Origin: a virus
IMG/VR virus record: IMGVR_UViG_3300006046_000001
Coordinates: 1-64,000 of that record
Length of the DNA stretch: 64,000 nt
Reading direction: 5' to 3' (one strand)
Part shown: positions 7,491-64,000 of the stretch, one piece after another
How positions within the stretch are numbered: the first letter of the stretch is position 1
Layout of the letters: each line of letters opens with the position of its first letter
Notes under the pieces: model-generated
Database searches by the model: none
Told to the model about the DNA's origin: nothing
What the model saw: only the letters and a program-made list of their open reading frames with translations
Position numbers and translations under genes: made by a program

Positions 7491-8075
7491 CTACACTCCA
7501 GGTTTAAGATTGTCCTCGAGTATCTGCCTCTCCTTCCCCAAATCACGGAGCAGAGCCTCATCCTGACTAAACTTGTCCTTGTATCGTCCGCCAACGAGCT
7601 TCTTGATGTTAGCGATCTCAACCATCTCCATTGTAGTACCAAGAACACTACAGAGCAGGTTGAGATACCAATCGGCATCTCCCATCTCTTCCTTGAGGTT
7701 GGTCTCATCTAACTCCTTACCTTGGAAGAAATGAGCTTCAGCAGCCTCAATAGTTTCTCCTCCTAGCTCGGTAGCCAGTCCAATCAATGCGTGAATGACC
7801 CGGATGGATCGCGGATTGGAGAATCGCGCTTTGACTCTTTCCATTCCGTCATTCGTTAATCCTGTTAGGAGCTTTTGACATGGGTAATCTTTCCCGTAGA
7901 AGAGATGCTTCTTGAGTAGGTCTAGTCTAGCTGCCAAGTCGGTCATTCTGACGAAGACCTCGTGAAGTTCCTTCAAAGTGCCTTCGTCCTGGAATCTTAT
8001 TAACATCTCTGGCGTCACTGGAGCCTCTGTCCGAGTGGCTAGGAGCACTCTATCTGCAGCAGGAATTCTTGGCAC
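7491..8075 (-). CDS. mazG: MazG-like nucleoside triphosphate pyrophosphohydrolase
   Basis: LIGLATELGGETIEAAE ... EEMGDADWYL ... IANIKKLVGGRY matches the E-x-x-E / EE-x-GD-x-x-W / N-x-x-KL-x-x-RY pattern of all-alpha MazG-type NTP-PPases. Confidence 0.7.
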   Translation of the reverse strand: MPRIPAADRVLLATRTEAPVTPEMLIRFQDEGTLKELHEVFVRMTDLAARLDLLKKHLFYGKDYPCQKLLTGLTNDGMERVKARFSNPRSIRVIHALIGLATELGGETIEAAEAHFFQGKELDETNLKEEMGDADWYLNLLCSVLGTTMEMVEIANIKKLVGGRYKDKFSQDEALLRDLGKERQILEDNLKPGV

Positions 8076-8077
8076 AA

Positions 8078-8620
8078 CTACGTTCCTTTCAAAAGTCTGA
8101 GAGACCGAAGGTTACGGAAAAAGCCTTTGAAGTCAGAACCCCAACCTACAACAGGCACGTTGGAGCTAAGTTTGAATCCGACATAGTTACAGTAGATGGC
8201 ATCCATCGGAACAAACCCTTTGTGGAAGAGGACAGCAATCTGAGCTTCTTCCACACCAAGTTCAAACAGTGCTTTGCCTACCAGATCTAGGGTTTGTCCA
8301 CTGCTGATCATGTCATCTACAATCAACACTTTCTTCGGCATATCTGACATACCGAAGTATTCGAACTTACCGTCTCCAGTTAGTGAGACATGGAACTTAT
8401 GTACTGCAACTGGAAGTTTGATCCATTGCAGCATCTCGTGAAGAAATGGTCCAGCCCCGGGCAGAATCGGAACTATGTGGAGAGGATCAGGAAGCCAGTC
8501 ATGTTGGATCTGAAGAGCCAACTCTCTGATCTTGTCCTCAATTTCTGATTCCCTGAAAAGCTCGTCGCCAAGCAAACCAAGCAACTGCTTAGAGGTCAGG
8601 CTGCGATAGTCAATGGCCAT
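8078..8620 (-). CDS. hpt: hypoxanthine-guanine phosphoribosyltransferase-like (type I PRTase)
   Basis: PRPP-binding motif KKVLIVDDMISSGQTL. C-terminal YVGFKLSSNVPVVGWGSDFKGFFRNL resembles the DYVGF..FVVGYGLDY..YRNLP signature of HPRT. Size of 180 aa fits. Confidence 0.7.
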   Translation of the reverse strand: MAIDYRSLTSKQLLGLLGDELFRESEIEDKIRELALQIQHDWLPDPLHIVPILPGAGPFLHEMLQWIKLPVAVHKFHVSLTGDGKFEYFGMSDMPKKVLIVDDMISSGQTLDLVGKALFELGVEEAQIAVLFHKGFVPMDAIYCNYVGFKLSSNVPVVGWGSDFKGFFRNLRSLRLLKGT

Positions 8621-54312: not shown

Positions 54313-54777
54313 ATGCTCTGCACGAAGCGACTTGAGTTTGACGCTGGTCACCGAGTCCTTGGGCATGGAGGTAAGTGTAGACACCTGCATGGTCATCGCT
54401 ATGCCGCAGAGATTACTGTGTACGCAGAAGAGACCAACAAGCTCGGCTTCGTGGTGGACTTCGGTTGCATCAAGGAAGCTGTAGGCGAGTGGATTGACGA
54501 CAACTGGGATCACAACTTTCTCTGCAATGCTGACGATCCTTTACTACATGTCTTGGATCACTCTGAGCTAGAGTTTGAAGTGACTGGAGGACGTAAACCG
54601 TTTGTTATGCCGGGCAAGCAGAACCCGTCGGCAGAAAATCTTGCTCGCTTTCTGCTCTTCAAAGCAACAGAGCTCTTGGAAGATGCCTACCACGTAAGAG
54701 TTGTCAAAGTAAGGCTTTATGAAACACCAACCTGCTGGTCAGACTTCCGAAATCCCTACTTCCACCCCAGCGAGTAA
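54313..54777 (+). CDS. queD: 6-carboxy-5,6,7,8-tetrahydropterin synthase (QueD)
   Basis: LEFDAGHRVLGHGGKCRHLHGHRY matches the QueD/PTPS zinc and catalytic Cys motif (CxxxHGH). Confidence 0.85.
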   Translation: MLCTKRLEFDAGHRVLGHGGKCRHLHGHRYAAEITVYAEETNKLGFVVDFGCIKEAVGEWIDDNWDHNFLCNADDPLLHVLDHSELEFEVTGGRKPFVMPGKQNPSAENLARFLLFKATELLEDAYHVRVVKVRLYETPTCWSDFRNPYFHPSE

Positions 54778-55498
54778 GCTACTCAAAGTGGTGGCGATCT
54801 TTCGTACACTTGATGGTGAGTGTACACTCAACGGTCCTCTTCAGTTCTCTACGTTCATTCGCCTCGGCGGGTGCAATCTGAGATGTTGGAAGAGCACTGG
54901 GTTCTGTGATGCTCCTGCTACTTTGGATATGAGCTTTCCATATCCTGAGATGACAGTAGAGCAGATCATTACAAAGGTAGAACAGCTGAAAGTCAAGAGA
55001 GTGACCATAACTGGAGGAGAACCTCTGCTCCAGAAGCCTTTGCTCTTAGATCTCTGCTATGCCTTGAAAGAGTTAGGCATCAAGATCCATCTAGAGACAA
55101 GCGGGTCAATAGCGTTGCTCTCTACTGAGCTGTACGCTTTTGACTGTGTAATCATGGATCTGAAACCTCCGTCCACTGAGATGGAGAAGATGAACAAGTT
55201 CAGCATGATACCAATGCTGCGGACTCACGATTACATCAAGTTTGTGCTTAGTGACAGGGCTGACTTCACTTGGGCTTTGTCTGTACTGAAGAAGTACAAC
55301 CACAGATGTCATGTAGCAATGGGACCACGCTTCGGCTATCTCACTGGAGCAGAGATCGTTAAGTGGTTAGCAGAAGCTGAACAGTTCCAGATACAACTCA
55401 ACCTTCAACTTCACAAGTACATCTGGCCTCATGATGAACCTTACTTTAAGGATCTGAAGCAAGTTGACTTCAACAAGTTTGTGGCTCTGGAGAAATAA
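54719..55498 (+). CDS. queE: 7-carboxy-7-deazaguanine synthase (QueE, radical SAM)
   Basis: FIRLGGCNLRCWKSTGFCDAP cluster motif and ITGGEPLLQ. The ATG start overlaps queD by 59 nt. An alternative GTG at 54788 is possible. Confidence 0.8.
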   Translation: MKHQPAGQTSEIPTSTPASKLLKVVAIFRTLDGECTLNGPLQFSTFIRLGGCNLRCWKSTGFCDAPATLDMSFPYPEMTVEQIITKVEQLKVKRVTITGGEPLLQKPLLLDLCYALKELGIKIHLETSGSIALLSTELYAFDCVIMDLKPPSTEMEKMNKFSMIPMLRTHDYIKFVLSDRADFTWALSVLKKYNHRCHVAMGPRFGYLTGAEIVKWLAEAEQFQIQLNLQLHKYIWPHDEPYFKDLKQVDFNKFVALEK

Positions 55499-55500
55499 GC

Positions 55501-55713
55501 ATGGACAAGCACATTAAAGTGATTTACGTCTCTGTCTCAGGCTCCAGAGCAGACGCTCTCAAACAGTTGCAAGACAAGATCAACGATTATACTGAGAAGC
55601 CAAAGACCGACTTCAACACTGGCTGGAGGTTTCACAGCCAGAACTTGGTGCACTTGCAAACCAACATCGGCATTGAAATCTACGGCCTCTTGTTCTTTGA
55701 AGAATCACGATGA
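55501..55713 (+). CDS. hypothetical protein inside the deazaguanine operon
   Basis: 70-aa ORF with ATGA overlap with the next gene. No family recognised. Confidence 0.45.
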   Translation: MDKHIKVIYVSVSGSRADALKQLQDKINDYTEKPKTDFNTGWRFHSQNLVHLQTNIGIEIYGLLFFEESR

Positions 55714-56495
55714 TCCATTTGCATCAGAGACCAGCAGCAATTGCTTTTACCGGTGGAATTGACAGCACGGTTCTAGCCTACTGGCTGTGCGCTGAGAATG
55801 ACAAGCTCGAGTTAGAGTTTTCACCCACACCAGAACCTCCTGGGTATAAGACCAAGCTGACTCTTCTGTGCTGCAACTATGGACAGAAGACCTGGAATAG
55901 GACTCTTGATCTTGCCAATGAACATGCGATGATCTTGTCGCATAAGTATCCTAAGCTTCATGTTGAAGCTCAGCCCATCCGAGTGGTCCTCCCTGATTGG
56001 ACTACCGGTGGTGGATTGTTCCAAGAGAATTATGTTCCACCGAAGCAAGACGAGACAGTAGACCATCATGAAGAAGTTCGGCGGTATGATTACTGCTACG
56101 TGGATGGTCTGAACGTCATCATGTACTCTTGGATGATGGCATGGTGCTCAAAACAGGAGGTCAGCTACTTGTTGACAGGCCATCAGTTTGAAGTGAACGA
56201 GTGGGATCATTTCGACGGGTACAAGTACAGAACTGATGACTCAACTCCATTCTTTACTGAACGAATGAATTTGATGAATGAGCTTGGATTCTCCTATAGA
56301 ACTAGGATTGAGTCGCCGTTCATCAGTATGAGACTAAGCAAGTACAACATCTGCAACCTAGGTGTTCAGCTAGATGTTGATCTAGGAAAGAAGACTTTCT
56401 CTTGTCAGTTTAGTCCCTCCTGCCAAAAGTGTGATAACTGCATTATTCGCCGCAAGGCGTTTGCGATGCTGAATATCAAGGATGAATATGTTTAG
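55710..56495 (+). CDS. queC: QueC-like PP-loop ATPase (7-cyano-7-deazaguanine synthase family), paralogue 1
   Basis: AIAFTGGIDST (SGGxDS PP-loop), NYGQK (like DYGQRH), YVDGLNVIMYSW (like VPGRN), C-terminal CQFSPSCQKCDNCIIRR zinc cluster. Confidence 0.7.
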   Translation: MIHLHQRPAAIAFTGGIDSTVLAYWLCAENDKLELEFSPTPEPPGYKTKLTLLCCNYGQKTWNRTLDLANEHAMILSHKYPKLHVEAQPIRVVLPDWTTGGGLFQENYVPPKQDETVDHHEEVRRYDYCYVDGLNVIMYSWMMAWCSKQEVSYLLTGHQFEVNEWDHFDGYKYRTDDSTPFFTERMNLMNELGFSYRTRIESPFISMRLSKYNICNLGVQLDVDLGKKTFSCQFSPSCQKCDNCIIRRKAFAMLNIKDEYV

Positions 56496-57369
56496 AAACA
56501 TACTCGACCAACTCGACGCTGAGTATCGCTTTGCTATTGCTGAAGGTTCCAAAGTAGGACCTTTGAAGCAGAGCATAGTGTTAGACACTTATGGTAACGA
56601 CACTCCTAGTCGGTACGCTAACACCATGTCTGCGGTGCTCAGCACTGGAGAGTTCGGGTCTAAGACAATTGTAGTAGATGAGATCACTAGAAAGATGACG
56701 TCTAGGACTCTTCTGTTCAACAGTCTTGGCGACCCAATAGCGAACATGTGTTCAGCACATCTGACTAGAATCAGATGTGGGTTCATGGCAGCTTTGTGCT
56801 GTAGGTACTACTACCAACAGCATCAACTTCCACCCAAGGTAGCGATACTTGGCTTCGGTAGGATCGGCAAGACAGTACTGGACGTCTTGGCTAAAGTTCT
56901 AGACGACACAGCTACAGACTGGATGTTCAAAGAGTCAAGAGAGGCTCCTCTCGTCTATCTAGATGAGAAGCGAACTCCAGCTGACCTATCAGATGCGGAT
57001 CTAGTGATCACTTGCACATCTGAATGGGACAAGGCTGCCAGAATTAGTTCTAACACTTTCAAACACAAGAGTTTAGTTGTCTCTTTCGATCTAGGATACT
57101 TTCTAGATCGGTCGTTTAGACAGAATGAACAAAACAACTTTTCTGACTGTCCTTCGCACGTGAGGCACAACTTCCACGAAGAGTTTCCTTGGGATTGGGA
57201 AGACAGCGACGGCGAACTTGCGGCACCTACTTTTGCTCCTCTCTTTGAGCTTACCACACATGACGCTGGAATAGCTGTAGCGTACATCTATGGCATGGCT
57301 TTCTCGGATTTAATAATGTCACTACACTCCCACGACCTCATTCCCTACTTCGCCAGCCATGACCTCTAA
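56482..57369 (+). CDS. ornithine cyclodeaminase/mu-crystallin-like NAD(P)-binding enzyme (putative)
   Basis: HLTRIRCGFMAALCCRYY followed by KVAILGFGRIGKT (GxGxxG) mimics the T..RT.A...A..L ... iiG.G layout of the OCD/mu-crystallin family. Motif-level call only. Confidence 0.4.
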   Translation: MNMFRNILDQLDAEYRFAIAEGSKVGPLKQSIVLDTYGNDTPSRYANTMSAVLSTGEFGSKTIVVDEITRKMTSRTLLFNSLGDPIANMCSAHLTRIRCGFMAALCCRYYYQQHQLPPKVAILGFGRIGKTVLDVLAKVLDDTATDWMFKESREAPLVYLDEKRTPADLSDADLVITCTSEWDKAARISSNTFKHKSLVVSFDLGYFLDRSFRQNEQNNFSDCPSHVRHNFHEEFPWDWEDSDGELAAPTFAPLFELTTHDAGIAVAYIYGMAFSDLIMSLHSHDLIPYFASHDL

Positions 57370-58300
57370 TCACCCTAACCCATTCGTCCAGACCTGTATC
57401 AACATAGCTCGAAATGGATGTCAGAAGCAAGGAGCAGCAGGAGTTGCAGTTCCTTACTACAATCCTAAGCTCCAAGAGCTAGGCCGTTTTCTACTAACTC
57501 GTTCTGGCTGTCCTCAAGATTCTTGCCAGAACATCTGCGGTCCTCATAGCTACAAGAGTATAGCACTATGCTTCGGTGCTGGGATTGATAGCTACTGCGC
57601 TTTAATTTTAGCATTGCAACTAGAACACAATCCCATTCACGTAGTGCATGTCCACTACGGTCAGCCCTACTATGACGAAGAACAGTTTGTAGTAAACAGA
57701 ATCTTTTCAGCCTACCCTTCGGCGATGAAGCAAGACCTAAACCGCTTTCCTGGCTGGCAGAACAGACTCAAACTAGAAGACGGCGGCAATGATTCCAACG
57801 AAGGTTTCTACGCAGACATTGGCCTAGTCAATGAAGGTCTCGACTGGGAGAACTATATCATCCCAGCAAGAAACTTAGTGCTTGCGGCAATTGCCTCCCA
57901 GTACTCTAATCATGTTTGGGTTGTTGCCAACAGCAGAGCTAATGAAGCAGTAGGCACTCCAGACAAGACGAAGCACTTCTTCCAGACTACTGTAGAGATC
58001 ATGACGCAGTTTTATGGAAGCAAGTACATCTTCGGTTCGCCATTTAGTACACAATCAAAGCTTAGGGTAGTGCAAAACTACCTCCAAGCTGGTGGCTCTA
58101 TAGAAGCTCTCAAAGAGACTGTTTCTTGTTATTCGCCATCAAAGGGAGATATAATTCATTGTGGTAAGTGTTATGCTTGCTACAAAAGATTCAAGCTCTT
58201 CCAGGCTCTGAACGTGGAACATAACTTTGTGGTACATCCACAAAGTGCTCCAAACTGGAATGCTTACGAAGCAAGAGAAGCGAAAAAACATGGAGTTTAA
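57359..58300 (+). CDS. QueC-like PP-loop ATPase, paralogue 2, with Cys-rich N-terminal extension
   Basis: ALCFGAGIDS (degenerate PP-loop), HVHYGQPYY, IIPARNLVLAAIAS, C-terminal SCYSPSKGDIIHCGKCYACYKRF. Carries a ~65-aa N-terminal extension with C..C...C..C..C. Confidence 0.6.
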   Translation: MTSNHPNPFVQTCINIARNGCQKQGAAGVAVPYYNPKLQELGRFLLTRSGCPQDSCQNICGPHSYKSIALCFGAGIDSYCALILALQLEHNPIHVVHVHYGQPYYDEEQFVVNRIFSAYPSAMKQDLNRFPGWQNRLKLEDGGNDSNEGFYADIGLVNEGLDWENYIIPARNLVLAAIASQYSNHVWVVANSRANEAVGTPDKTKHFFQTTVEIMTQFYGSKYIFGSPFSTQSKLRVVQNYLQAGGSIEALKETVSCYSPSKGDIIHCGKCYACYKRFKLFQALNVEHNFVVHPQSAPNWNAYEAREAKKHGV

Positions 58301-58310
58301 GACTTAAGAA

Positions 58311-59258
58311 ATGAACCTCTATCTCGCTTGCAGCGGTATGATGTTTCATACCTACAGGGATGATTTATTCCCTCGCTTCTGTGTGCCTGAGCCTAGGTTT
58401 GCTGAACTGCGCTCCTACTTCGAGAACAACATTCGGACGTTCAACGGCCATACTCTGCCTAAGTTTGGCAATCCGTTCTTCATAGACTCAGGAGCCTTTT
58501 CTGCTTATATGCAGAAGATTCCTATCTCTTTTGAAGAGTACTCTAGCTTCCTCCTGGCTTACGGAGATCAAGCAGATCTGTACTGCGGTCTTGATGCTAT
58601 CCCAGAGGGACCAACTAAGGAAGCTAAGAAGAAGTCTGCCGAAGAGACGTGGCAGAACCAACTCAAGATGGAAGCAATGGGACTCAAGCCTGTTCCTGTG
58701 TTTCACTCTGGTGAACCCTGGCAGTACCTAGAGAGATACATTGATAGGAATGAATACATCTGCATTGGTGGTTTGGTCAACACACCAGATGTAGTAGATG
58801 GGTTCTTACACACTTGCTGGAGTAAGTACCTTACAGACAGCAAGGGTGATCCAATTCGCAAGGTGCACGGCTTCGGTATGACCACGCTGAAGCACTTGGT
58901 TGCGTACCCTTGGGCTAGTGTTGACAGTTCAACTTGGCTTGTACACTCCAAGTATGGAATCATTTCTGTACCTCCAAAGAAACCGGACGGTGCTGGCTTC
59001 GACTACAGAAAGAAGCCTATCCTTCTGTCAGTGTCAGACGAAAGCTCTTTCAAGACAGAAGAAGGAAAGCACATTGACAACCTAACTCCTATCCAGAAAG
59101 ATGCGGTAGCAGAGTTCGTTGAACAGTTTGGTCTCACAATGTGGGATCTCAGAAGAGAGCCAGTGCCGAGAATGATTATCAACTTCGAGTATTGGCTCAA
59201 TGTGGAAAAGGCGTGCAGCGATTACTTGAGAAAGCCTGAGCAATATGAAATCTTCTAG
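58311..59258 (+). CDS. dpdA: DpdA-like DNA-guanine transglycosylase (TGT superfamily)
   Basis: FFIDSGAFSAY resembles the TGT DSGGFQ catalytic motif. PVFHSGEPW...YICIGGLV and HGFGMT...ASVDSSTWL resemble TGT barrel motifs. Last gene of the que operon. Confidence 0.65.
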   Translation: MNLYLACSGMMFHTYRDDLFPRFCVPEPRFAELRSYFENNIRTFNGHTLPKFGNPFFIDSGAFSAYMQKIPISFEEYSSFLLAYGDQADLYCGLDAIPEGPTKEAKKKSAEETWQNQLKMEAMGLKPVPVFHSGEPWQYLERYIDRNEYICIGGLVNTPDVVDGFLHTCWSKYLTDSKGDPIRKVHGFGMTTLKHLVAYPWASVDSSTWLVHSKYGIISVPPKKPDGAGFDYRKKPILLSVSDESSFKTEEGKHIDNLTPIQKDAVAEFVEQFGLTMWDLRREPVPRMIINFEYWLNVEKACSDYLRKPEQYEIF

Positions 59259-59736: not shown

Positions 59737-59951
59737 AAGTCAGAAGAAAGATCGTTATTGAATATGAGACAGATGATCAAGTAAGTCAGGACGACGAAGC
59801 CGAGTGTTTCCGTTCTGATCCTACACTTGTTCTAGATTTAATTACCAACAATCGGAAAACCCTAGACCTGAGAGTCGAGCATGTCGAAGTTTGTAATCCA
59901 GAAGAGGGAACTGCTGGACGTCCTGGACAGAGTGAGGTCGACCGTCAGTAA
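59733..59951 (+). CDS. small acidic hypothetical protein
   Basis: 72-aa ORF with ATGA overlap upstream. It overlaps the clamp gene by 71 nt, so it is uncertain. Confidence 0.35.
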   Translation: MKVRRKIVIEYETDDQVSQDDEAECFRSDPTLVLDLITNNRKTLDLRVEHVEVCNPEEGTAGRPGQSEVDRQ

Positions 59952-60924
59952 CTCTGGACTGGTGCAGATCCTTCAATGCTTCTGCTTTCGGAAAGGGTTT
60001 GTCTCGACTTTCAATGGGCAGGCAGGAACTATTACTGCCTTAGAACTTGGCGGCATGGACTTCTGTATTGCCGAAGACAAGTTCTATCGGCTGGTCTCTG
60101 CAATGCCAGAGACCATCCAACTTAGCCTTGGAGAGAATGGCAAGCTTACTGTTAAGAGCGGCTCTAATAAGACCGACCTTAACACGATTGCCACCAGAGC
60201 CTTTCCAGACTTCTTGCCCAAAGAGATCTTGCAGTACTCTTTCGCTCCCAATTTCATTGAGGGACTAAAGAGGGTAGCATTCTCAATCAGCAGTAATGCA
60301 ACCAAAGCAAACTTGATGGGTGCTGGAGTCAATGGCAGTCACATCTACTCGGCTGACGGGCTAAGGATCTCGCGGTTCAAGATTGCAGCACCTGTGCCCT
60401 GTCCCTTGACCATTCCTGCTGATGCAGTGAACCATCTGATCAAGTTGGGCCAGCCAGAACAGTTGTTTCACACCAAGAGTCAGATTGGTGCTTGGTATCC
60501 TAACCACAGAACCCACTATGTGGTAGCTTGCATTGCTCATGAGTTCCCTTACGCTGCGGCAGATCACGCCTATCAGAAGATTGCTGGTAACATCGCAGCC
60601 GACTTCCCACCAGAGTTTTCTTATGCCCTGCAGAGAGTAGCTTTGCTGTGCGCCGAAGAGAGTTCGGAAGTCCTCATAGAAAACACAAATGACGGCTTGA
60701 TTATCTCAACTGCTTCTGAAGAGGGAAGTGGTAGAGAAGTTCTAGGCTGGGCTTACAAAGAGCCGTTCAAGTTTGCTGCTAACCCAAAACTTCTAAGACA
60801 AGCGTTTGAGAGCAGCAATAAAGTGGATCTAACAAACGTCGTCAAGGGCGATAAGCGAATGCTGCTCTTTAAGAGCGACGATGGTTTTGAACATCTGTTG
60901 GCTCTAATGAGCATGAAAGAATAA
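59881..60924 (+). CDS. dnaN: DNA polymerase sliding clamp (DnaN-like beta subunit)
   Basis: The N-terminal MSKFVIQKRELLDVLDRVRSTVSNSGLVQILQCFCF... follows the DnaN pattern. 347 aa, adjacent to the polymerase. Confidence 0.6.
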   Translation: MSKFVIQKRELLDVLDRVRSTVSNSGLVQILQCFCFRKGFVSTFNGQAGTITALELGGMDFCIAEDKFYRLVSAMPETIQLSLGENGKLTVKSGSNKTDLNTIATRAFPDFLPKEILQYSFAPNFIEGLKRVAFSISSNATKANLMGAGVNGSHIYSADGLRISRFKIAAPVPCPLTIPADAVNHLIKLGQPEQLFHTKSQIGAWYPNHRTHYVVACIAHEFPYAAADHAYQKIAGNIAADFPPEFSYALQRVALLCAEESSEVLIENTNDGLIISTASEEGSGREVLGWAYKEPFKFAANPKLLRQAFESSNKVDLTNVVKGDKRMLLFKSDDGFEHLLALMSMKE

Positions 60925-63482
60925 TGCCACAGCTATCTATCTTCAATGTTGTGGATGGACAAGTTCTCGATCAGCGGTGCACAGCATGTGACCTATCTGA
61001 CAACGTGAACTTAAAAAGCAACTGCATGTCTGGCATTGGGCCTAAGCAAGCCCAGTTGATGTTTGTGGGCAAGGCACCAGGGAATGAGGATGATGGCATA
61101 GGCAAGCCGATGACCGGTGCCAATGGCCGGCTCTTCACCGAACTCTTAAGGGAAGCTGGTATCAACTTAGATACAGTGTATATTACCAACTGTGTTAAGT
61201 GTGCCACCTATAACAAAGAGCTTAAGACTAAGCACTTCACTGCTTGCAAGAACCATCTTCTCCAAGAGATAAGATCTGTTCAGCCCAAAGCTATTGTCGC
61301 TGTAGGAGCTGAAGCTCTTGAGTGGCTAACTGGTGAGACGGGTATCAAGAAGCTTCGCCGACACGGCCTACCATGTACTCTAGATCAACACCTCTTGGTC
61401 TTTCCGATTGGTCAGCCTGCACAGCTCTTTCATTCTCAGGGTAGTGCAAAGCAACGTCTCCGAGCAGAGATGATTGATGACTTGCTTTGGCTACGAAAGA
61501 GGATGGAAGAAGGAATGCTCACCAGACAGGATGAGCAAGAGACTGACTACAAGACAGCTAAGAATGTAGAAGAAGTCTTAGCCTTCTTGGCTGAGATAGC
61601 AGCAACGCCAGAGACCAGCTGGGTCACTTGGGACTTGGAAACTTCTAACAAGGAGTACTCTAAAGGCCAACTCTTTCCTACCAACGAAGGTTGGGTAACC
61701 TCAATCGGTTTCTCGCTTCGTCCAGGGCATGGTAGAGCTATACCTCTGTATGCTAAAGGTACGGTAAGTCTTTACTATTGGAAAGAGAAAGAGCTTGCAG
61801 TCATTCTGCCTGCTGTTGCTGCAGCTCTAAAGAAGCGAAGAAATGTCTGGCACAATGGCACACAGTTCGATCAGAAGTGGGTCAGCTGGACTTTTCCAGA
61901 GTGGGAGAATGAACAGCTTGACATAGCGTTTGACACCATCTATGCTCACTATCTGATTGATCCAAGCCATAAGGAATACCATCGCTTAGAGTCTCTGGCA
62001 AGACTCAACACGAAGATGTCTCCTTGGAAGTCTCTGTACAATGCTCAAGATACAGAAAAGCAATGCTACTACCTTTGCAGAGACGTTGATGCCGGCAATA
62101 GAATCATAGAGCCTTTGTGGAAGCAGCTGACTGAGAAGCAGCATTGGCTTCTACAGACGTTAGTGATTCCTCTTGGCCATGAACTCTGCAAGATGGAGCA
62201 GCACGGAGTCAAAGTAGATAGCGAAGGTCTTGACAACCTAGACAAACTGCTCGGAGAGAAGATTGAAGAGCACAAGAGAGCAGTCAAGACGTTCGACCAG
62301 ATCAAGGGTTTTAACCTTACTGAAAACAAAGAGTTTAACCCTGACTCAAACAGAGACCTCGCTTTGGCGATGGAGTATTACTTCAAGTTTCCAAAGCTAG
62401 AGTCAACAGGAAGTAATGCGTACAGCACTAATGCCAGAGTGCTTGAAGCGTACTCTTATGAGCCGTTTATTCAGCACGTCTTAGCTCTACGCCGGCTTGG
62501 CAAACTCCATGGTACCTACTGCAAGGGTATCAAAGAGAGACTCAGAGATGGAATCATTCACACGCAGTACAACATTCCTGGGACAGTGAATGGTCGGCTC
62601 TCGTCAGAAGATCCTAACTTACAGAACCTGCCGACTCCCAGAACAGCTGGTCGAGTCCTAGCTGATCCTAATTCAGTCAAGCAACTCTTTAGAGCTAGAG
62701 ATGGTTACGTTCTGATTGAAGAGGATCAAAGCCAGATCGAACTAAGAGTGCTGGCTTACAAGAGTGGTGATCCAGAGCTGTTGAAAGCGTACCGAGAAGA
62801 TAAGGACATCCACCGAAGTACGGCAGCAAGAGTCTACAGCATACCAGAAGAACAAGTCAATGCCTTCCAGAGAGATCTAGCCAAGCCTGTCAACTTTGGT
62901 ATCATCTATGGTAAGACACTTGAGTCCATAGGTGAAGATTTCATTCTAGCATTTACACTTGCTTGGAAAGCAGCAACACAGTTCCATGGCTGGTCTTTAG
63001 ATCAAGTCAAAGCTGCTGCTCTAAATGGTGCGAGAGAGTTCTGGAATGGGCATAAGATGGCCTACCCTCTCGTCTGGCAATACATGGATCTTCAAGAGAA
63101 GATCATTACCCAGCAAGGGTACCAAGAGACAAACTTCGGCAGGCGTAGATACTATGAGTACATCGACGCCGCAGCAATCCGAGAAGCCTACAACTTCCCA
63201 ATCCAATCAGAAGCTTCTGAGTACACTCTCTTTGGTATAGTGAACACTGCCAAAGCTCTTCGGTCTCTTGGACTGGATGCTTACCCACTACTGACTGTGC
63301 ATGACAGCATTGTCTTTGAGTGCCGGATAGATCACTTCTGGCAAGTGGTCGATGTGACCAAGTCGATCTTGGAGAGTCAGAAGTATCCCTGGCTAACTGT
63401 ACCTTTGAAGGTAGACATCAAAGTAGGCTACAACTGGGGTCGCATGAAGAAGGTCAATGCTCTCAAGAGGACTATTGGATGA
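60924..63482 (+). CDS. polA: family A DNA polymerase with N-terminal family-4 UDG-like domain and 3'-5' exonuclease
   Basis: UDG4-like: CTACDL...LMFVGKAPGNEDDGIGKPMTGANGRLF...VYITNCVKC. Exo: WDLETS, NGTQFD. Pol motifs: DQSQIELRVLA, RDLAKPVNFGIIYG, VHDSIVFE. Confidence 0.9.
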   Translation: MPQLSIFNVVDGQVLDQRCTACDLSDNVNLKSNCMSGIGPKQAQLMFVGKAPGNEDDGIGKPMTGANGRLFTELLREAGINLDTVYITNCVKCATYNKELKTKHFTACKNHLLQEIRSVQPKAIVAVGAEALEWLTGETGIKKLRRHGLPCTLDQHLLVFPIGQPAQLFHSQGSAKQRLRAEMIDDLLWLRKRMEEGMLTRQDEQETDYKTAKNVEEVLAFLAEIAATPETSWVTWDLETSNKEYSKGQLFPTNEGWVTSIGFSLRPGHGRAIPLYAKGTVSLYYWKEKELAVILPAVAAALKKRRNVWHNGTQFDQKWVSWTFPEWENEQLDIAFDTIYAHYLIDPSHKEYHRLESLARLNTKMSPWKSLYNAQDTEKQCYYLCRDVDAGNRIIEPLWKQLTEKQHWLLQTLVIPLGHELCKMEQHGVKVDSEGLDNLDKLLGEKIEEHKRAVKTFDQIKGFNLTENKEFNPDSNRDLALAMEYYFKFPKLESTGSNAYSTNARVLEAYSYEPFIQHVLALRRLGKLHGTYCKGIKERLRDGIIHTQYNIPGTVNGRLSSEDPNLQNLPTPRTAGRVLADPNSVKQLFRARDGYVLIEEDQSQIELRVLAYKSGDPELLKAYREDKDIHRSTAARVYSIPEEQVNAFQRDLAKPVNFGIIYGKTLESIGEDFILAFTLAWKAATQFHGWSLDQVKAAALNGAREFWNGHKMAYPLVWQYMDLQEKIITQQGYQETNFGRRRYYEYIDAAAIREAYNFPIQSEASEYTLFGIVNTAKALRSLGLDAYPLLTVHDSIVFECRIDHFWQVVDVTKSILESQKYPWLTVPLKVDIKVGYNWGRMKKVNALKRTIG

Positions 63483-64000
63483 GCGAGAGAATTACTACCA
63501 AGCAAATTGGTAACAGGATCTTAGAGCCTTGGATGTGGATTACAATCATTGTCTCTGCTACAAACTTTGAGAACTTGTTTGCTCTTCGCTGTCATCCTGC
63601 CACTGAGCCACACTTTCAGAACCTTGCTTACAAAGCAAGAACTGCTCTTGACAACTCAATTCCAAACAAACTAGAGTGGGGACAATGGCATCTTCCATTG
63701 ATCTATGAAGAAGACTTGCCACTAATCCCTGAAAACTTCCTACCCAATGTGTCTGCTGGAAGATGTGCAAGAGTCTCTTTTCTTACACATGAAGGTAAGA
63801 GAGATTGGGAAGCTGACAAGGAATTGTGTCAGAGGTTGACTTCTGCAGTCCCTTTGCATGCTTCTCCTCTGGAACACCCAGCTCAAGCTGTTAGACCTCC
63901 GGTAGGAAGGCACGTTCCGGTAAATGTAGGAGGAGTTCCAATTACTGATTGGGGAAACTTTGATCCAGGCTGGTTGCAGCTCAGGAAGATGTACAACAAC
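63479..64000 (+). CDS. hypothetical protein, possibly ThyX-like (partial, runs off right edge)
   Basis: ATGA overlap with the polA stop. Open for 174 codons to the window end. TNFENLFALRCHPATEPHFQNLAYKA and LHASPLEH weakly recall FAD-dependent thymidylate synthase motifs. Confidence 0.3.
   Translation, partial: MSERITTKQIGNRILEPWMWITIIVSATNFENLFALRCHPATEPHFQNLAYKARTALDNSIPNKLEWGQWHLPLIYEEDLPLIPENFLPNVSAGRCARVSFLTHEGKRDWEADKELCQRLTSAVPLHASPLEHPAQAVRPPVGRHVPVNVGGVPITDWGNFDPGWLQLRKMYNN

What the first reader, a model, noticed from the sequence alone, without database searches (positions are those of the whole stretch)
54313..59258. 7-deazaguanine DNA-modification operon embedded in the replication module
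The genes run consecutively with overlapping starts. They are QueD (GKCRHLHGHRY), QueE (GGCNLRC...C, ITGGEPLL), QueC-like x2 and a TGT-superfamily DpdA-like gene (IDSGAFS, VDSSTW). In phages this set is established to exchange guanine in DNA for a preQ0-type base, which protects the genome from restriction enzymes. I did not recognise FolE (GTP cyclohydrolase I), QueF or a glutamine amidotransferase domain anywhere in the window. The first pathway step must therefore come from the host or from outside the window, and the end product cannot be deduced from known rules.
Basis: partly seen in the sequence, partly recalled or inferred. Interest (0 to 1): 0.65.

Follow-up and report, generated by a model that had tools for sequence, protein, structure and literature searches.

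The report
Deazaguanine DNA-modification operon, unusual tailoring core
An uncultured 89.5-kb phage carries a real 7-deazaguanine DNA-modification operon, but its final tailoring genes (two atypical QueC-like ligases flanking an ornithine-cyclodeaminase-like enzyme) match no described pathway, so the phage probably makes a DNA base that has not been described.

Summary
QueD, QueE, two QueC-family genes and a DpdA-type transglycosylase lie at 54313-59258 as one tightly packed block on the + strand.

The DpdA model is very confident (pLDDT 95). Its best matches among solved structures are all tRNA-guanine transglycosylases, and the proposed Asp motifs are invariant in 60 homologues.

The "missing" FolE is encoded by the same complete phage genome, at 76250-76819, outside the window. 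QueF, a class-II glutamine amidotransferase domain and a Pfam-type TGT are absent genome-wide.

This trio is conserved in related metagenomic phages. In two relatives the same slot holds AdoMet decarboxylase plus an aminopropyltransferase instead, and QueC1 co-varies with whichever cassette is present.

Elsewhere, the OCD-like family lies beside CmoY-type amide ligases in 5-carboxymethylcytosine DNA-hypermodification loci.

Neither QueC paralogue keeps the full experimentally defined QueC signature. QueC1 lacks three of the four essential residues and QueC2 lacks one.

Most likely, a QueC paralogue couples the 7-carboxyl of CDG to an amine that the cassette makes or processes, and DpdA inserts the product into DNA. 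The product itself is inferred, not shown.

The parts
54313..54777 (+). QueD (6-carboxytetrahydropterin synthase, PTPS family)
   Evidence: PF01242 2.6e-33 (above cut-off). TIGR03367 4.5e-24 (84.7 bits, just under the 89.25 cut-off). phrog_2389 1e-34. 44-55% identical to orthologues in five related phage contigs.
54719..55498 (+). QueE (radical-SAM 7-carboxy-7-deazaguanine synthase). The true start is probably GTG 54788.
   Evidence: TIGR03963 8.7e-44, TIGR04349 2.7e-42, PF04055 2.9e-13, phrog_2076 6e-30. HMM and orthologue alignments begin at residue 22. Alternative GTG starts lie 10-13 nt after the QueD stop.
55501..55713 (+). 70-aa ORF of unknown function, translationally coupled to QueC1
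   Evidence: No family hit better than E 0.0097, and that one is below its cut-off. No homologue in the related operons, which carry unrelated small ORFs at this position.
55710..56495 (+). QueC1: a derived QueC-family PP-loop/Zn protein, predicted amide ligase, co-varying with the neighbouring cassette
   Evidence: PF06508 3.7e-19, but TIGR00364 only 57 bits against a 150.3 cut-off. It keeps TGGxDS, YGQ and the Cys cluster. It lacks the equivalents of E. coli R99 (VDGLN), Y131 (TDDS) and Y189 (CQ), which are essential for preQ0 synthesis. Identity is 52-66% to type I orthologues and 38-43% to type II. The type split appears in 100% of bootstrap trees.
56482..57369 (+). OCD/mu-crystallin-superfamily NAD(P)-binding enzyme (new subfamily), the 'type I cassette'
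   Evidence: 104 homologues in 1.8 billion representatives. A family profile matches an OCD-family protein (8j1c, 3.2e-10), archaeal AlaDH (1omo, 2e-9) and mu-crystallin (2i99, 1.8e-8). 22 of 60 members hit PF02423. GxGxxG is present. Invariant K29, K61 and R98 align with the family's PPK, GxK and TxxR motifs. No homologue in GenBank phages.
57359..58300 (+). QueC2: a QueC-family PP-loop/Zn protein with a ~65-aa N-terminal extension, closer to canonical QueC but not canonical
   Evidence: PF06508 5.4e-17; TIGR00364 48.6 bits against a 150.3 cut-off; PDB QueC 2pg3 6.2e-6. It keeps Y-x-Q...E, (V/I)PxRN and C-Y. YPDC is replaced by TPDK. Identity to all five orthologues is 41-48% regardless of cassette type.
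58311..59258 (+). DpdA (DNA guanine transglycosylase, closest to the 9g/Queuovirinae-type DpdA)
   Evidence: phrog_887 4.5e-50. tblastn gives 186 phage records, 30-38% identical, including genes annotated '7-deazaguanosine inserting enzyme DpdA' in Seuratvirus. AlphaFold2 pLDDT 95.1. The top six Foldseek PDB hits are all TGT. D59, S60, G61, D95, H132, H186 and D205 are invariant.

Best explanation
This is the 7-deazaguanine DNA-modification operon of a complete, uncultured 89.5-kb phage.

**Steps supported by homology or fold.**
- FolE is encoded 17 kb downstream, at genome 76250-76819. FolE, QueD and QueE together make 7-carboxy-7-deazaguanine (CDG) from GTP.
- A DpdA transglycosylase with a TGT fold exchanges guanine in DNA for the finished base. 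As in Queuovirinae, it sits directly upstream of the sliding clamp and the DNA polymerase.

**Inferred steps.** The tailoring core, QueC1 / OCD-like enzyme / QueC2, does not follow the canonical CDG to preQ0 route.
- Both QueC paralogues keep the ATP-binding PP-loop and the zinc site. Both have lost residues shown to be essential for preQ0 synthesis.
- I propose that they act as ATP-dependent carboxylate-amine ligases on the C7 carboxyl of CDG. This is what the QueC-family enzymes QatC and Cap9 do with protein N-termini, and what CmoY does with 5-carboxymethylcytosine.
- QueC1 would be the amine-specific enzyme, because it co-varies with the cassette.
- The OCD-like NAD(P) enzyme carries the family's carboxylate-binding Lys/Lys/Arg positions. 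It would make, or process after ligation, an amino-acid-type amine.
- In sister phages the same slot holds AdoMet decarboxylase plus an aminopropyltransferase, which would supply a polyamine-type amine instead.

**Predicted product.** An N-substituted 7-carboxamido (or amidino) 7-deazaguanine that is not among the eight known DNA derivatives. Its function would be to shield the DNA from restriction and other DNA-targeting defences.
For: **Canonical parts.**
- Family assignments for QueD, QueE, both QueC paralogues and DpdA.
- FolE in the same genome, which is complete with a 120-bp direct terminal repeat.
- DpdA TGT fold and invariant Asp/His residues.
- DpdA-clamp-polymerase synteny with Queuovirinae.

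**Non-canonical core.**
- No QueF, no class-II amidotransferase domain and only two QueC-family genes genome-wide.
- Both QueC paralogues score far below the QueC equivalog cut-off.
- Mapped on the experimentally defined signature (Y35, R99, Y131, Y189 essential; PMC13329287), QueC1 lacks R99, Y131 and Y189. QueC2 lacks Y131.

**Conservation and cassette swap in five related phage contigs (DpdA 47-56% identical).**
- L002, L030 and L033 have QueC1 / OCD-like / QueC2.
- L031 and L032 have QueC1 / AdoMet_dc (about 5e-20) / unknown ORF / Spermine_synth (3e-11 to 3e-17) / QueC2 / DpdA.
- QueC1 separates by cassette type in 100% of bootstrap trees. DpdA does so in 0%, QueC2 in 4% and QueD in 15%.

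**Independent association.**
- Outside this clade, six OCD-like family members (P0003-P0007, P0012) lie 0-1 genes upstream of a homologue of SpCmoY (E 3e-22 to 5e-22 or better). They sit in loci with CmoA, an SPPC-motif C5-methylase-like CmoX and ParB_N.
- SpCmoY is the experimentally shown 5cxmC-glycine amide ligase (PMC12783734).

**Precedent.** QueC-family enzymes can ligate CDG to amines other than ammonia: QatC and Cap9 (PMC13329287).
Against: - No chemistry was measured. The product, the order of the steps, and whether tailoring occurs on the free base or on DNA are all inferred.
- QueC2 keeps most canonical residues and could still make preQ0 or ADG. In that case the DNA base might be a known one.
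- QueC2 does not co-vary with the cassette, so its role in the model is undefined.
- In the CmoY-type loci the OCD-like gene lies upstream of the ligase. Here the co-varying partner, QueC1, lies upstream of the OCD-like gene, so the parallel is not exact.
- The clade comparison rests on six genomes. With four against two labels, a clean split arises by chance in about 12-14% of label shuffles.
- The OCD-like protein of this phage does not reach any curated family cut-off on its own. Its assignment rests on the family profile. Its single-sequence structure model was unusable.
- Common amino acids are already available in the host, so a dedicated donor-making enzyme is not obviously needed.
Confidence: 0.5

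Rival explanations
1. **Known product by a new route.** One paralogue, most likely QueC2, still makes preQ0 or ADG. The OCD-like enzyme only supplies ammonia, by AlaDH- or OCD-type deamination of an amino acid. It would stand in for the glutaminase domain of Gat-QueC or of Gat-fused CmoY-like ligases. The DNA would then carry dPreQ0, dADG or dG+.
For: - QueC2 keeps Y35, Q37, E42, VPxRN and C-Y.
- Its nearest phage matches include the QueC domain of proteins annotated as glutamine amidotransferase-type (Gat-QueC-like).
- The reactions I recall for the OCD family run through an imine, and its deaminases release ammonia (own knowledge).
- Both ligase families have members with a fused glutaminase domain. 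The OCD-like gene is found beside members that lack one.
Against: - The alternative cassette, AdoMet decarboxylase plus aminopropyltransferase, cannot supply ammonia. The slot therefore does not look like an ammonia module.
- Canonical QueC uses free ammonia without a partner.
- QueC2 lacks the aromatic residue at Y131, which is required in E. coli QueC.
- This model gives QueC1 no role, although QueC1 is the best-conserved protein among the type I operons.
Confidence: 0.25
2. **OCD-like enzyme as a reductase.** It would reduce a nitrile or imine made by a QueC paralogue (a non-homologous QueF analogue), or an adenylated carboxylate. The result would be a preQ1-type aminomethyl or related reduced side chain. 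In sister phages that side chain is aminopropylated.
For: - The family has a Rossmann fold related to ketimine and imine reductases such as mu-crystallin.
- A nearly invariant Cys99 sits next to the substrate-binding Arg98. This recalls the catalytic Cys of QueF (own knowledge).
- No QueF is encoded.
- Aminopropyltransferases need an amine acceptor (own knowledge).
Against: - The carboxylate-binding positions K29, K61 and R98 are conserved. preQ0 has no carboxylate.
- The same family occurs in 5cxmC/CmoY loci, where no nitrile is known.
- Type II operons have no OCD-like gene, yet would need the same amine.
- The model does not explain why there are two QueC paralogues.
Confidence: 0.1
3. **Not a DNA base at all.** The extra QueC paralogue(s) would attach CDG to a protein, as QatC and Cap9 do. 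Alternatively, the genes would make a free deazapurine metabolite or nucleotide, in the manner of toyocamycin or sangivamycin. DpdA would insert plain preQ0 taken from the host or made by the phage.
For: - QatC and Cap9 show that QueC paralogues can modify proteins. QueC2 has a weak QatC hit (NF041925, 1.9e-5).
- The phage also encodes a phosphoribosyltransferase (PF00156, 4.5e-15). This could make a deazapurine nucleotide, as in the toyocamycin pathway (own knowledge).
Against: - The paralogues are embedded in, and translationally coupled with, the DpdA operon in all six phages.
- None of the QatA, QatB, QatD or CD-NTase partners seen around QatC and Cap9 appears in the operon.
- The cassette enzymes act on small amines.
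Confidence: 0.05

Closest known systems
Queuovirinae-type phage 7-deazaguanine systems (Enterobacteria phage 9g with dG+, Escherichia phage CAjan and Seuratvirus with dPreQ0): FolE-QueD-QueE-QueC or Gat-QueC plus DpdA (PMC6884629, PMC10516641)
   Same: - FolE, QueD, QueE and a DpdA of the same subfamily type (30-38% identity, conserved His in K-V-H-G-F-G).
- DpdA lies directly upstream of the clamp and the DNA polymerase.
   Different: - Two divergent QueC paralogues instead of one canonical QueC or Gat-QueC.
- An OCD-like enzyme lies between them.
- No Gat domain, QueF or YhhQ; FolE is detached from the operon.
- No DNA similarity to any GenBank phage.
CmoA/CmoX/CmoY 5-carboxymethylcytosine hypermodification (Synechococcus phage S-B43; PMC12783734)
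   Same: - The logic is 'carboxylate handle on a DNA base plus an ATP-dependent amide ligase without a glutaminase domain'.
- The same OCD-like family accompanies CmoY homologues in metagenomic phage loci.
   Different: - The handle here would be the C7 carboxyl of CDG, not 5cxmC.
- The ligases are QueC-family, not Asn-synthase-family.
- S-B43 itself has no OCD-like gene.
- The published work does not mention this neighbour.
QatC and Cap9, QueC-family ligases that carboxydeazaguanylate protein N-termini (PMC13329287)
   Same: - QueC scaffold with the PP-loop and zinc site retained.
- The substrate motifs are altered.
- ATP-dependent amide bond between CDG and an amine other than ammonia.
   Different: - Those are host defence proteins acting on proteins.
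- Here the paralogues sit in a phage DpdA operon with small-amine-metabolising enzymes.
- The motif changes differ from QatC's.
OCD/mu-crystallin superfamily (ornithine and lysine cyclodeaminase, archaeal alanine dehydrogenase, SbnB, ketimine reductase)
   Same: - Profile-level homology (3.2e-10 to 1.7e-5).
- Rossmann GxGxxG.
- Aligned PPK, GxK and TxxR positions, which in this family bind the substrate carboxylate (the role of the residues is from my own knowledge).
   Different: - Pairwise relation to any characterised member is too weak for phmmer.
- 'RCG' replaces 'RTA', with a nearly invariant Cys.
- A distinct, mostly phage or metagenomic clade of about 100 clusters.
- Genomic partners are DNA-base amide ligases.
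ArcS-RaSEA archaeosine synthesis (lysine is added to preQ0 and then cleaved to leave the amidine; own knowledge, not checked here)
   Same: It is a conceptual precedent for 'attach an amino acid to the C7 substituent, then let a second enzyme process it'.
   Different: - Different enzyme families (a TGT-like protein plus a radical-SAM enzyme).
- It acts on tRNA.
- No homologues were identified in the operon; the radical-SAM gene at genome 69825-70784 was not examined further.

Membership tests
Phage DpdA (DNA guanine transglycosylase, 9g/DpdA1-like) | TGT-like TIM-barrel fold | tested here: met
   AlphaFold2 model with a 60-sequence alignment: pLDDT 95.1, pTM 0.91. The top six Foldseek PDB hits are all tRNA-guanine transglycosylases (4.6e-7 to 7e-4, probability 0.99-1.0). 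Generic TIM barrels follow.
Phage DpdA (DNA guanine transglycosylase, 9g/DpdA1-like) | Conserved catalytic and substrate Asp residues, and the conserved His that DpdA2 lacks | tested here: met
   D59 (DSGAF), D95, D205 (DSS) and H186 (KVHGFG) are invariant in 60-63 homologues, including Seuratvirus DpdA. Their equivalence to TGT Asp102 and Asp280, and to 'His196' of PMC6884629, is inferred from motif resemblance. It was not checked by residue-level superposition.
Phage DpdA (DNA guanine transglycosylase, 9g/DpdA1-like) | Sequence homology to characterised or annotated phage DpdA | tested here: met
   phrog_887 4.5e-50. tblastn gives 186 phage records, up to 38% identity, e.g. Escherichia phage VogelGryff DpdA. 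In BFVD it matches many phage DpdA-type models more strongly than nt-1 (2.3e-7; DpdA2 phage) or phiST (9.3e-3; DpdA3 phage).
Phage DpdA (DNA guanine transglycosylase, 9g/DpdA1-like) | Base-exchange activity on DNA, and substrate identity | not testable with these tools
   Needs expression plus nucleoside LC-MS.
Canonical preQ0 pathway (FolE-QueD-QueE-QueC) | FolE, QueD and QueE present | tested here: met
   FolE PF01227 3e-70 at genome 76250-76819. QueD PF01242 2.6e-33. QueE TIGR03963 8.7e-44, below its equivalog cut-off but with full-length coverage.
Canonical preQ0 pathway (FolE-QueD-QueE-QueC) | A QueC with the experimentally defined catalytic signature: SGGxDS, YxQxHxxE, VPxRN, YPDC and C(x)8CxxCxxC, with Y35, R99, Y131 and Y189 essential (PMC13329287) | tested here: not met
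   QueC1 reads TGGIDS, YGQKTWNRT, VDGLN, TDDS and C-Q, so R99, Y131 and Y189 are lost. QueC2 reads GAGIDS, YGQPYYDE, IPARN, TPDK and C-Y, so Y131 is lost. Both score 49-57 bits against the 150.3-bit cut-off of TIGR00364.
Gat-QueC / ArcS / QueF tailoring (dG+, dPreQ1) | Glutamine amidotransferase domain fused to QueC, or QueF, encoded by the phage | tested here: not met
   No GATase_7 and no QueF match anywhere in the complete genome at E<=0.1. Neither QueC paralogue has a Gat-domain family hit. ArcS was not searched separately.
OCD/mu-crystallin superfamily | Homology to PF02423 or to solved OCD-family structures, with the NAD-binding GxGxxG | tested here: met
   A family profile of 60 sequences against PDB gives 8j1c 3.2e-10, 1omo 2e-9, 2i99 1.8e-8, 4bv8 7.9e-8 and 5yu0 1.5e-5. 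22 of 60 members hit PF02423, best 3.1e-9. G124 and G126 are invariant. The window's own protein alone reaches only TIGR03944 at 1.8e-5, far below the cut-off.
OCD/mu-crystallin superfamily | A specific known reaction (cyclodeamination, alanine dehydrogenase, SbnB-type cleavage or ketimine reduction) | not testable with these tools
   Only the carboxylate-binding positions could be aligned. The structure model was unusable (pLDDT 36.8).
CmoY-type DNA-base amide-ligase systems | Asn-synthase-type ligase with CmoA and CmoX | tested here: not met
   Family scans of the operon proteins found no CmoA, CmoX or Asn-synthase-type ligase. The resemblance is functional, through the shared OCD-like partner and the carboxylate-handle logic. 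It is not family membership.

The most novel reading that the evidence does not exclude
A clade of uncultured phages uses CDG as a 'carboxylate handle'. Neofunctionalised QueC ligases would decorate it with different amines, chosen by a swappable cassette. An amino-acid-type amine would go with the OCD-like enzyme, as in this phage. A polyamine or aminopropyl-type amine would go with AdoMet decarboxylase plus aminopropyltransferase, as in sister phages. The result would be at least two undescribed 7-deazaguanine DNA bases. The OCD-like family would then be a general, previously unrecognised accessory enzyme of DNA-base amide ligases, shared between 7-deazaguanine and 5-carboxymethylcytosine hypermodification.
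Probability: 0.4. Interest if true: 0.85.

Novelty: new variant of a known kind. Interest (0 to 1): 0.74.

Why it matters
Eight 7-deazaguanine derivatives are known in phage DNA. Their gene sets are used as rules to predict DNA chemistry from sequence.

This operon breaks those rules in a conserved, patterned way. It has two non-canonical QueC paralogues flanking a slot that holds either an OCD-like enzyme or polyamine-synthesis genes.

If the proposed chemistry holds, three things follow:
- New amino-acid- or polyamine-bearing deazaguanines would be added to the list of natural DNA bases.
- The OCD/mu-crystallin superfamily would gain a function in DNA modification.
- Two separately discovered hypermodification systems, DpdA/QueC and CmoX/CmoY, would be linked through a shared accessory enzyme.

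Such bases matter for understanding escape from restriction and from CRISPR. They also matter for interpreting sequencing artefacts in viromes, and as enzymatic tools for tagging DNA.

Tried and rejected
- **DNA similarity.** blastn of the operon against 50,697 GenBank phages found no match.
- **OCD-like protein, direct searches.** There was no PDB hit by phmmer and no GenBank-phage hit. The word-seeded protein search found only the protein itself. Seeded with the family alignment, it found only two more proteins.
- **OCD-like protein, structure.** The single-sequence AlphaFold2 model was useless (pLDDT 36.8).
- **The search for related loci.** The OCD-like protein, DpdA, QueC2 and P0005 in IMG/VR gave nothing useful. 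The QueC1 alignment found nothing in IMG/VR. In JGI metagenomes it found only distant ordinary QueC genes, which I reused as canonical references.
- **DpdA against PDB.** Sequence and profile searches found nothing. The TGT relation needed a structure comparison.
- **Signals around the operon.** The promoter and terminator scan found no more than chance.
- **Literature.** Searches for OCD, AdoMet decarboxylase or aminopropyl together with 7-deazaguanine DNA found no description of this arrangement.
- **Sequencing runs.** I could not look for nanopore miscalls at G.
- **Ideas considered and set aside.** The 70-aa ORF is not part of the conserved system, because relatives have no homologue of it.

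Full report
**1. What the window is.**
The window is the first 64 kb of a complete 89,493-bp IMG/VR virus record with a 120-bp direct terminal repeat. The finding lies in a long rightward block of replication genes. In order these are a DnaB-like helicase, a primase, a 5'-3' exonuclease, the operon, a beta-clamp-like gene at 59881-60924 and a PolA at 60924-63482. In the related phages the PolA orthologue carries an N-terminal UDG-like domain; I did not run a family scan on this phage's PolA. The operon has no nucleotide-level relative among 50,697 GenBank phage records.

**2. Check of the observation.**
All five named genes are present on the + strand.
- QueD, 54313-54777: PF01242, 2.6e-33.
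- QueE, 54719-55498: TIGR03963, 8.7e-44.
- QueC-like #1, 55710-56495: PF06508, 3.7e-19.
- QueC-like #2, 57359-58300: PF06508, 5.4e-17.
- DpdA-like, 58311-59258: no Pfam or NCBIfam hit, but phrog_887 at 4.5e-50.

The quoted motifs are in the translations. Junctions range from a 59-nt overlap to a 10-nt gap. The 59-nt overlap is probably an artefact of taking the first ATG. QueE homology starts at residue 22, and GTG codons lie 10-13 nt after the QueD stop.

The interval holds two further ORFs that this finding did not list. One is a 70-aa ORF (55501-55713) with no significant hit and no homologue in relatives. The other is a 295-aa gene (56482-57369) between the two QueC paralogues.

**3. The missing first step.**
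GTP cyclohydrolase I is encoded by the same phage at genome 76250-76819 (PF01227, 3e-70, 189 aa, no internal stops). The CDG-forming pathway (FolE, QueD, QueE) is therefore complete and belongs to the phage. QueF, a class-II amidotransferase domain (GATase_7) and a Pfam-type TGT give no hit anywhere in the genome. QueC-family hits are limited to the two genes in the operon.

**4. DpdA.**
Sequence and profile searches against PDB find nothing, as expected for phage DpdA. tblastn finds 186 phage records at 30-38% identity. These include Seuratvirus genes annotated as the 7-deazaguanosine-inserting enzyme DpdA.

I collected 69 homologues and built an AlphaFold2 model on a 60-sequence alignment. 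It has pLDDT 95.1 and pTM 0.91.
- Against PDB, the six best Foldseek matches are all tRNA-guanine transglycosylases: Z. mobilis 7a4k at 4.6e-7 with probability 1.0, plus the human and mouse enzymes. Only generic TIM barrels follow.
- Against BFVD, 36 phage DpdA/TGT-type models match at E<=1e-3.
- D59, S60, G61 (DSGAF), D95, H132, H186 (KVHGFG) and D205 (DSS) are invariant.

The mapping of D59 and D205 onto TGT Asp102 and Asp280 is my inference from motif resemblance. As in Queuovirinae, dpdA is followed by the clamp and polymerase genes.

**5. The 295-aa gene.**
On its own this protein gives only weak NAD-domain hits and TIGR03944 (SbnB family) at 1.8e-5. It is an orphan in the word-seeded search. 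A full HMMER scan of 1.8 billion cluster representatives found 104 homologues, 67 of them at E<=1e-10. All are roughly 270-340 aa and at most 36% identical.

A 60-sequence profile places the family in the OCD/mu-crystallin superfamily:

| PDB entry | Protein | E-value |
|---|---|---|
| 8j1c | OCD-family protein | 3.2e-10 |
| 1omo | archaeal alanine dehydrogenase | 2e-9 |
| 2i99 | mu-crystallin | 1.8e-8 |
| 4bv8 | ketimine reductase | 7.9e-8 |
| 5yu0 | lysine cyclodeaminase | 1.5e-5 |

In addition, 22 of 60 members hit PF02423. Invariant residues include the Rossmann G124/G126, and K29, K61 and R98. These three align with the PPK, GxK and TxxR motifs of AlaDH and OCD. From my knowledge of OCD and AlaDH structures, those positions hold the substrate's alpha-carboxylate. 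A nearly invariant Cys99 follows R98. The family has no member in GenBank phages.

**6. Related phages and the cassette swap.**
DpdA homologues at 42-56% identity define a clade of metagenomic phages. I read five long contigs.

| Type | Contigs | Gene order |
|---|---|---|
| I | this phage, L002, L030, L033 | QueD .. QueE .. QueC1 / OCD-like / QueC2 .. DpdA / clamp / UDG-PolA |
| II | L031, L032 | QueC1 / AdoMet decarboxylase / 164-175-aa unknown / aminopropyltransferase / QueC2 / DpdA |

- In type I, the OCD-like orthologues are 25-34% identical to this phage's protein. L033's hits PF02423 directly.
- In type II, the decarboxylase hits PF02675 at about 5e-20. The aminopropyltransferase hits PF01564 at 3e-11 to 3e-17.

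The slot between the two QueC paralogues is therefore a swappable cassette of amine-metabolising enzymes.

Pairwise identities and ML trees show that QueC1 follows the cassette. Identity is 52-66% within type I, 50% within type II and 38-43% between types. The type split appears in 100% of bootstrap trees for QueC1, against 0% for DpdA, 4% for QueC2 and 15% for QueD. With six taxa this is suggestive, not conclusive.

**7. The same OCD-like family in another DNA-hypermodification system.**
Outside this clade, six different family members (P0003-P0007, P0012) lie directly upstream, or one gene upstream, of a roughly 290-aa PP-loop protein with the motif LSGGTDS.

These PP-loop proteins are homologues of the 'asparagine synthase' of Synechococcus phage S-B43 (E from 5e-22 to 3e-24). 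That protein is SpCmoY, shown experimentally to ligate glycine to 5-carboxymethylcytosine in DNA (PMC12783734).

The loci also carry:
- CmoA (TIGR00740, 3.3e-42 in L004 and 4.5e-11 in L005);
- a C5-methylase with the CmoX-type SPPC motif;
- ParB_N;
- in two loci, a nucleoside-deoxyribosyltransferase-like ORF.

In one contig the upstream fragment looks like the C-terminus of a spermidine synthase, but the hit is weak (E 0.028). One family member, in a bacterial MAG (L011), has no ligase downstream. Its upstream side is cut by the contig end. The published CmoY work does not mention this neighbour.

**8. The QueC paralogues against the experimental signature.**
Libby et al. 2026 (PMC13329287) define canonical QueC by five motifs: SGGxDS, YxQxHxxE, VPxRN, YPDC and the zinc motif. 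They show that Y35A, R99A, Y131A and Y189A abolish function.

HMMER's alignment of QueC2 to PDB QueC 2pg3 and a MAFFT alignment with 13 ordinary QueCs give the following.

| Motif | QueC1 (type I) | QueC2 |
|---|---|---|
| SGGxDS | TGGIDS | GAGIDS |
| YxQxHxxE | YGQKTWNRT (no His, no Glu) | YGQPYYDE (Tyr, Gln and Glu kept) |
| VPxRN | VDGLN (Arg lost) | IPARN (Arg kept) |
| YPDC | TDDS (Tyr lost) | TPDK (Tyr lost) |
| First zinc Cys + Tyr (C-Y) | C-Q (Tyr lost) | C-Y (kept) |

Type II QueC1 keeps the Arg of VPxRN. The active-site motifs of QueC1 thus differ between cassette types. Both paralogues keep the four zinc cysteines.

The same paper describes QatC and Cap9, QueC-family ligases that join CDG to protein N-termini. 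Ligation of CDG to amines other than ammonia therefore has precedent.

**9. Mechanism proposed.**
Supported by homology or fold:
- FolE, QueD and QueE give CDG.
- DpdA gives base exchange in DNA.

Inferred:
- A QueC paralogue adenylates the C7 carboxyl and couples it to an amine. QueC1 is the likelier candidate, given the co-variation and its remodelled pocket.
- The cassette provides that amine, or processes it after ligation.
- The OCD-like enzyme, with its amino-acid-type carboxylate site, points to an amino-acid-derived substituent in this phage.
- The decarboxylase and aminopropyltransferase cassette points to a polyamine-type substituent in the sister phages.
- The role of QueC2 is open. 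It could be a second activation, a DNA-level step next to DpdA, or residual ADG or preQ0 synthesis.

**10. Rivals.**
- Known product with an ammonia-supplying OCD-like enzyme: 0.25. The polyamine cassette weakens it.
- OCD-like enzyme as a QueF-like reductase: 0.1.
- A non-DNA target: 0.05.

**11. Novelty.**
Full-text searches found no description of an OCD-like or polyamine cassette in a 7-deazaguanine DNA system. An earlier AI note of this scan reports AdoMet decarboxylase and aminopropyltransferase pairs heading 7-deazaguanine clusters in Patescibacteria. I treat that as a lead only. It is consistent with the type II cassette, which I observed independently.

**12. Verdict.**
The operon is a genuine member of the known kind, phage DpdA-based 7-deazaguanine DNA modification. 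Its tailoring module is a new variant. The chemistry of the product remains to be measured.

**Limits.**

Noticed in passing
outside the window: genome 76250-76819 (+): FolE (GTP cyclohydrolase I, PF01227 3e-70) is encoded 17 kb downstream of the operon, detached from the other deazaguanine genes. In Queuovirinae, FolE sits next to DpdA.
   Followed up: yes
window 8078-8620 (-) and 7491-8075 (-): A phosphoribosyltransferase (PF00156, 4.5e-15) lies next to a 194-aa ORF that another first-stage note called MazG-like. That ORF gave no Pfam hit at E<=0.01. The phosphoribosyltransferase could salvage the guanine released by DpdA, or make a deazapurine nucleotide. Neither idea was tested.
   Followed up: partly
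outside the window: genome 69825-73291 (+): A run of modification-type genes. It comprises a radical-SAM protein (PF04055, 2.5e-10), a class I methyltransferase (PF13489, 1.6e-6), two ORFs with no hit, and a circularly permuted YpsA/SLOG-family protein (PF12694, 1.1e-33). This may be a second nucleotide- or glycan-modifying module. Its relation to the deazaguanine operon is unknown.
   Followed up: partly
window 63473-64000, continuing to genome 64027 (+): The ORF after PolA matches, by eye, only the C-terminal ~180 aa of the 303-aa ThyX-like protein (faint Thy1 hit) of the related phage L002. The N-terminal half with the ThyX-type motif region has no room upstream, because PolA ends at 63482. 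This may be a truncated or remodelled gene.
   Followed up: no
L031:7711-8238 and L032:7746-8240: A conserved 164-175-aa protein (33% identical between the two contigs, no Pfam hit) lies between AdoMet decarboxylase and the aminopropyltransferase in the type II cassette. It is an unassigned third component.
   Followed up: partly
L007:7461-7943 and L012:1899-2360: In two CmoY-type loci a nucleoside 2-deoxyribosyltransferase-like ORF (PF05014, 9.7e-5 and 3.2e-6, just under the cut-off) is inserted between the OCD-like gene and the CmoY-like ligase.
   Followed up: partly
L033:12936-16460: The PolA orthologue of a related phage is interrupted by an intein with an HNH endonuclease domain (1174 aa; Pfam Intein_splicing plus HNH_3).
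   Followed up: no
L002:16234-16797 and L011:1257-1616: SET-domain proteins occur near the operon in a related phage (weak hit). One also lies directly downstream of the OCD-like gene in a bacterial MAG contig.
   Followed up: no
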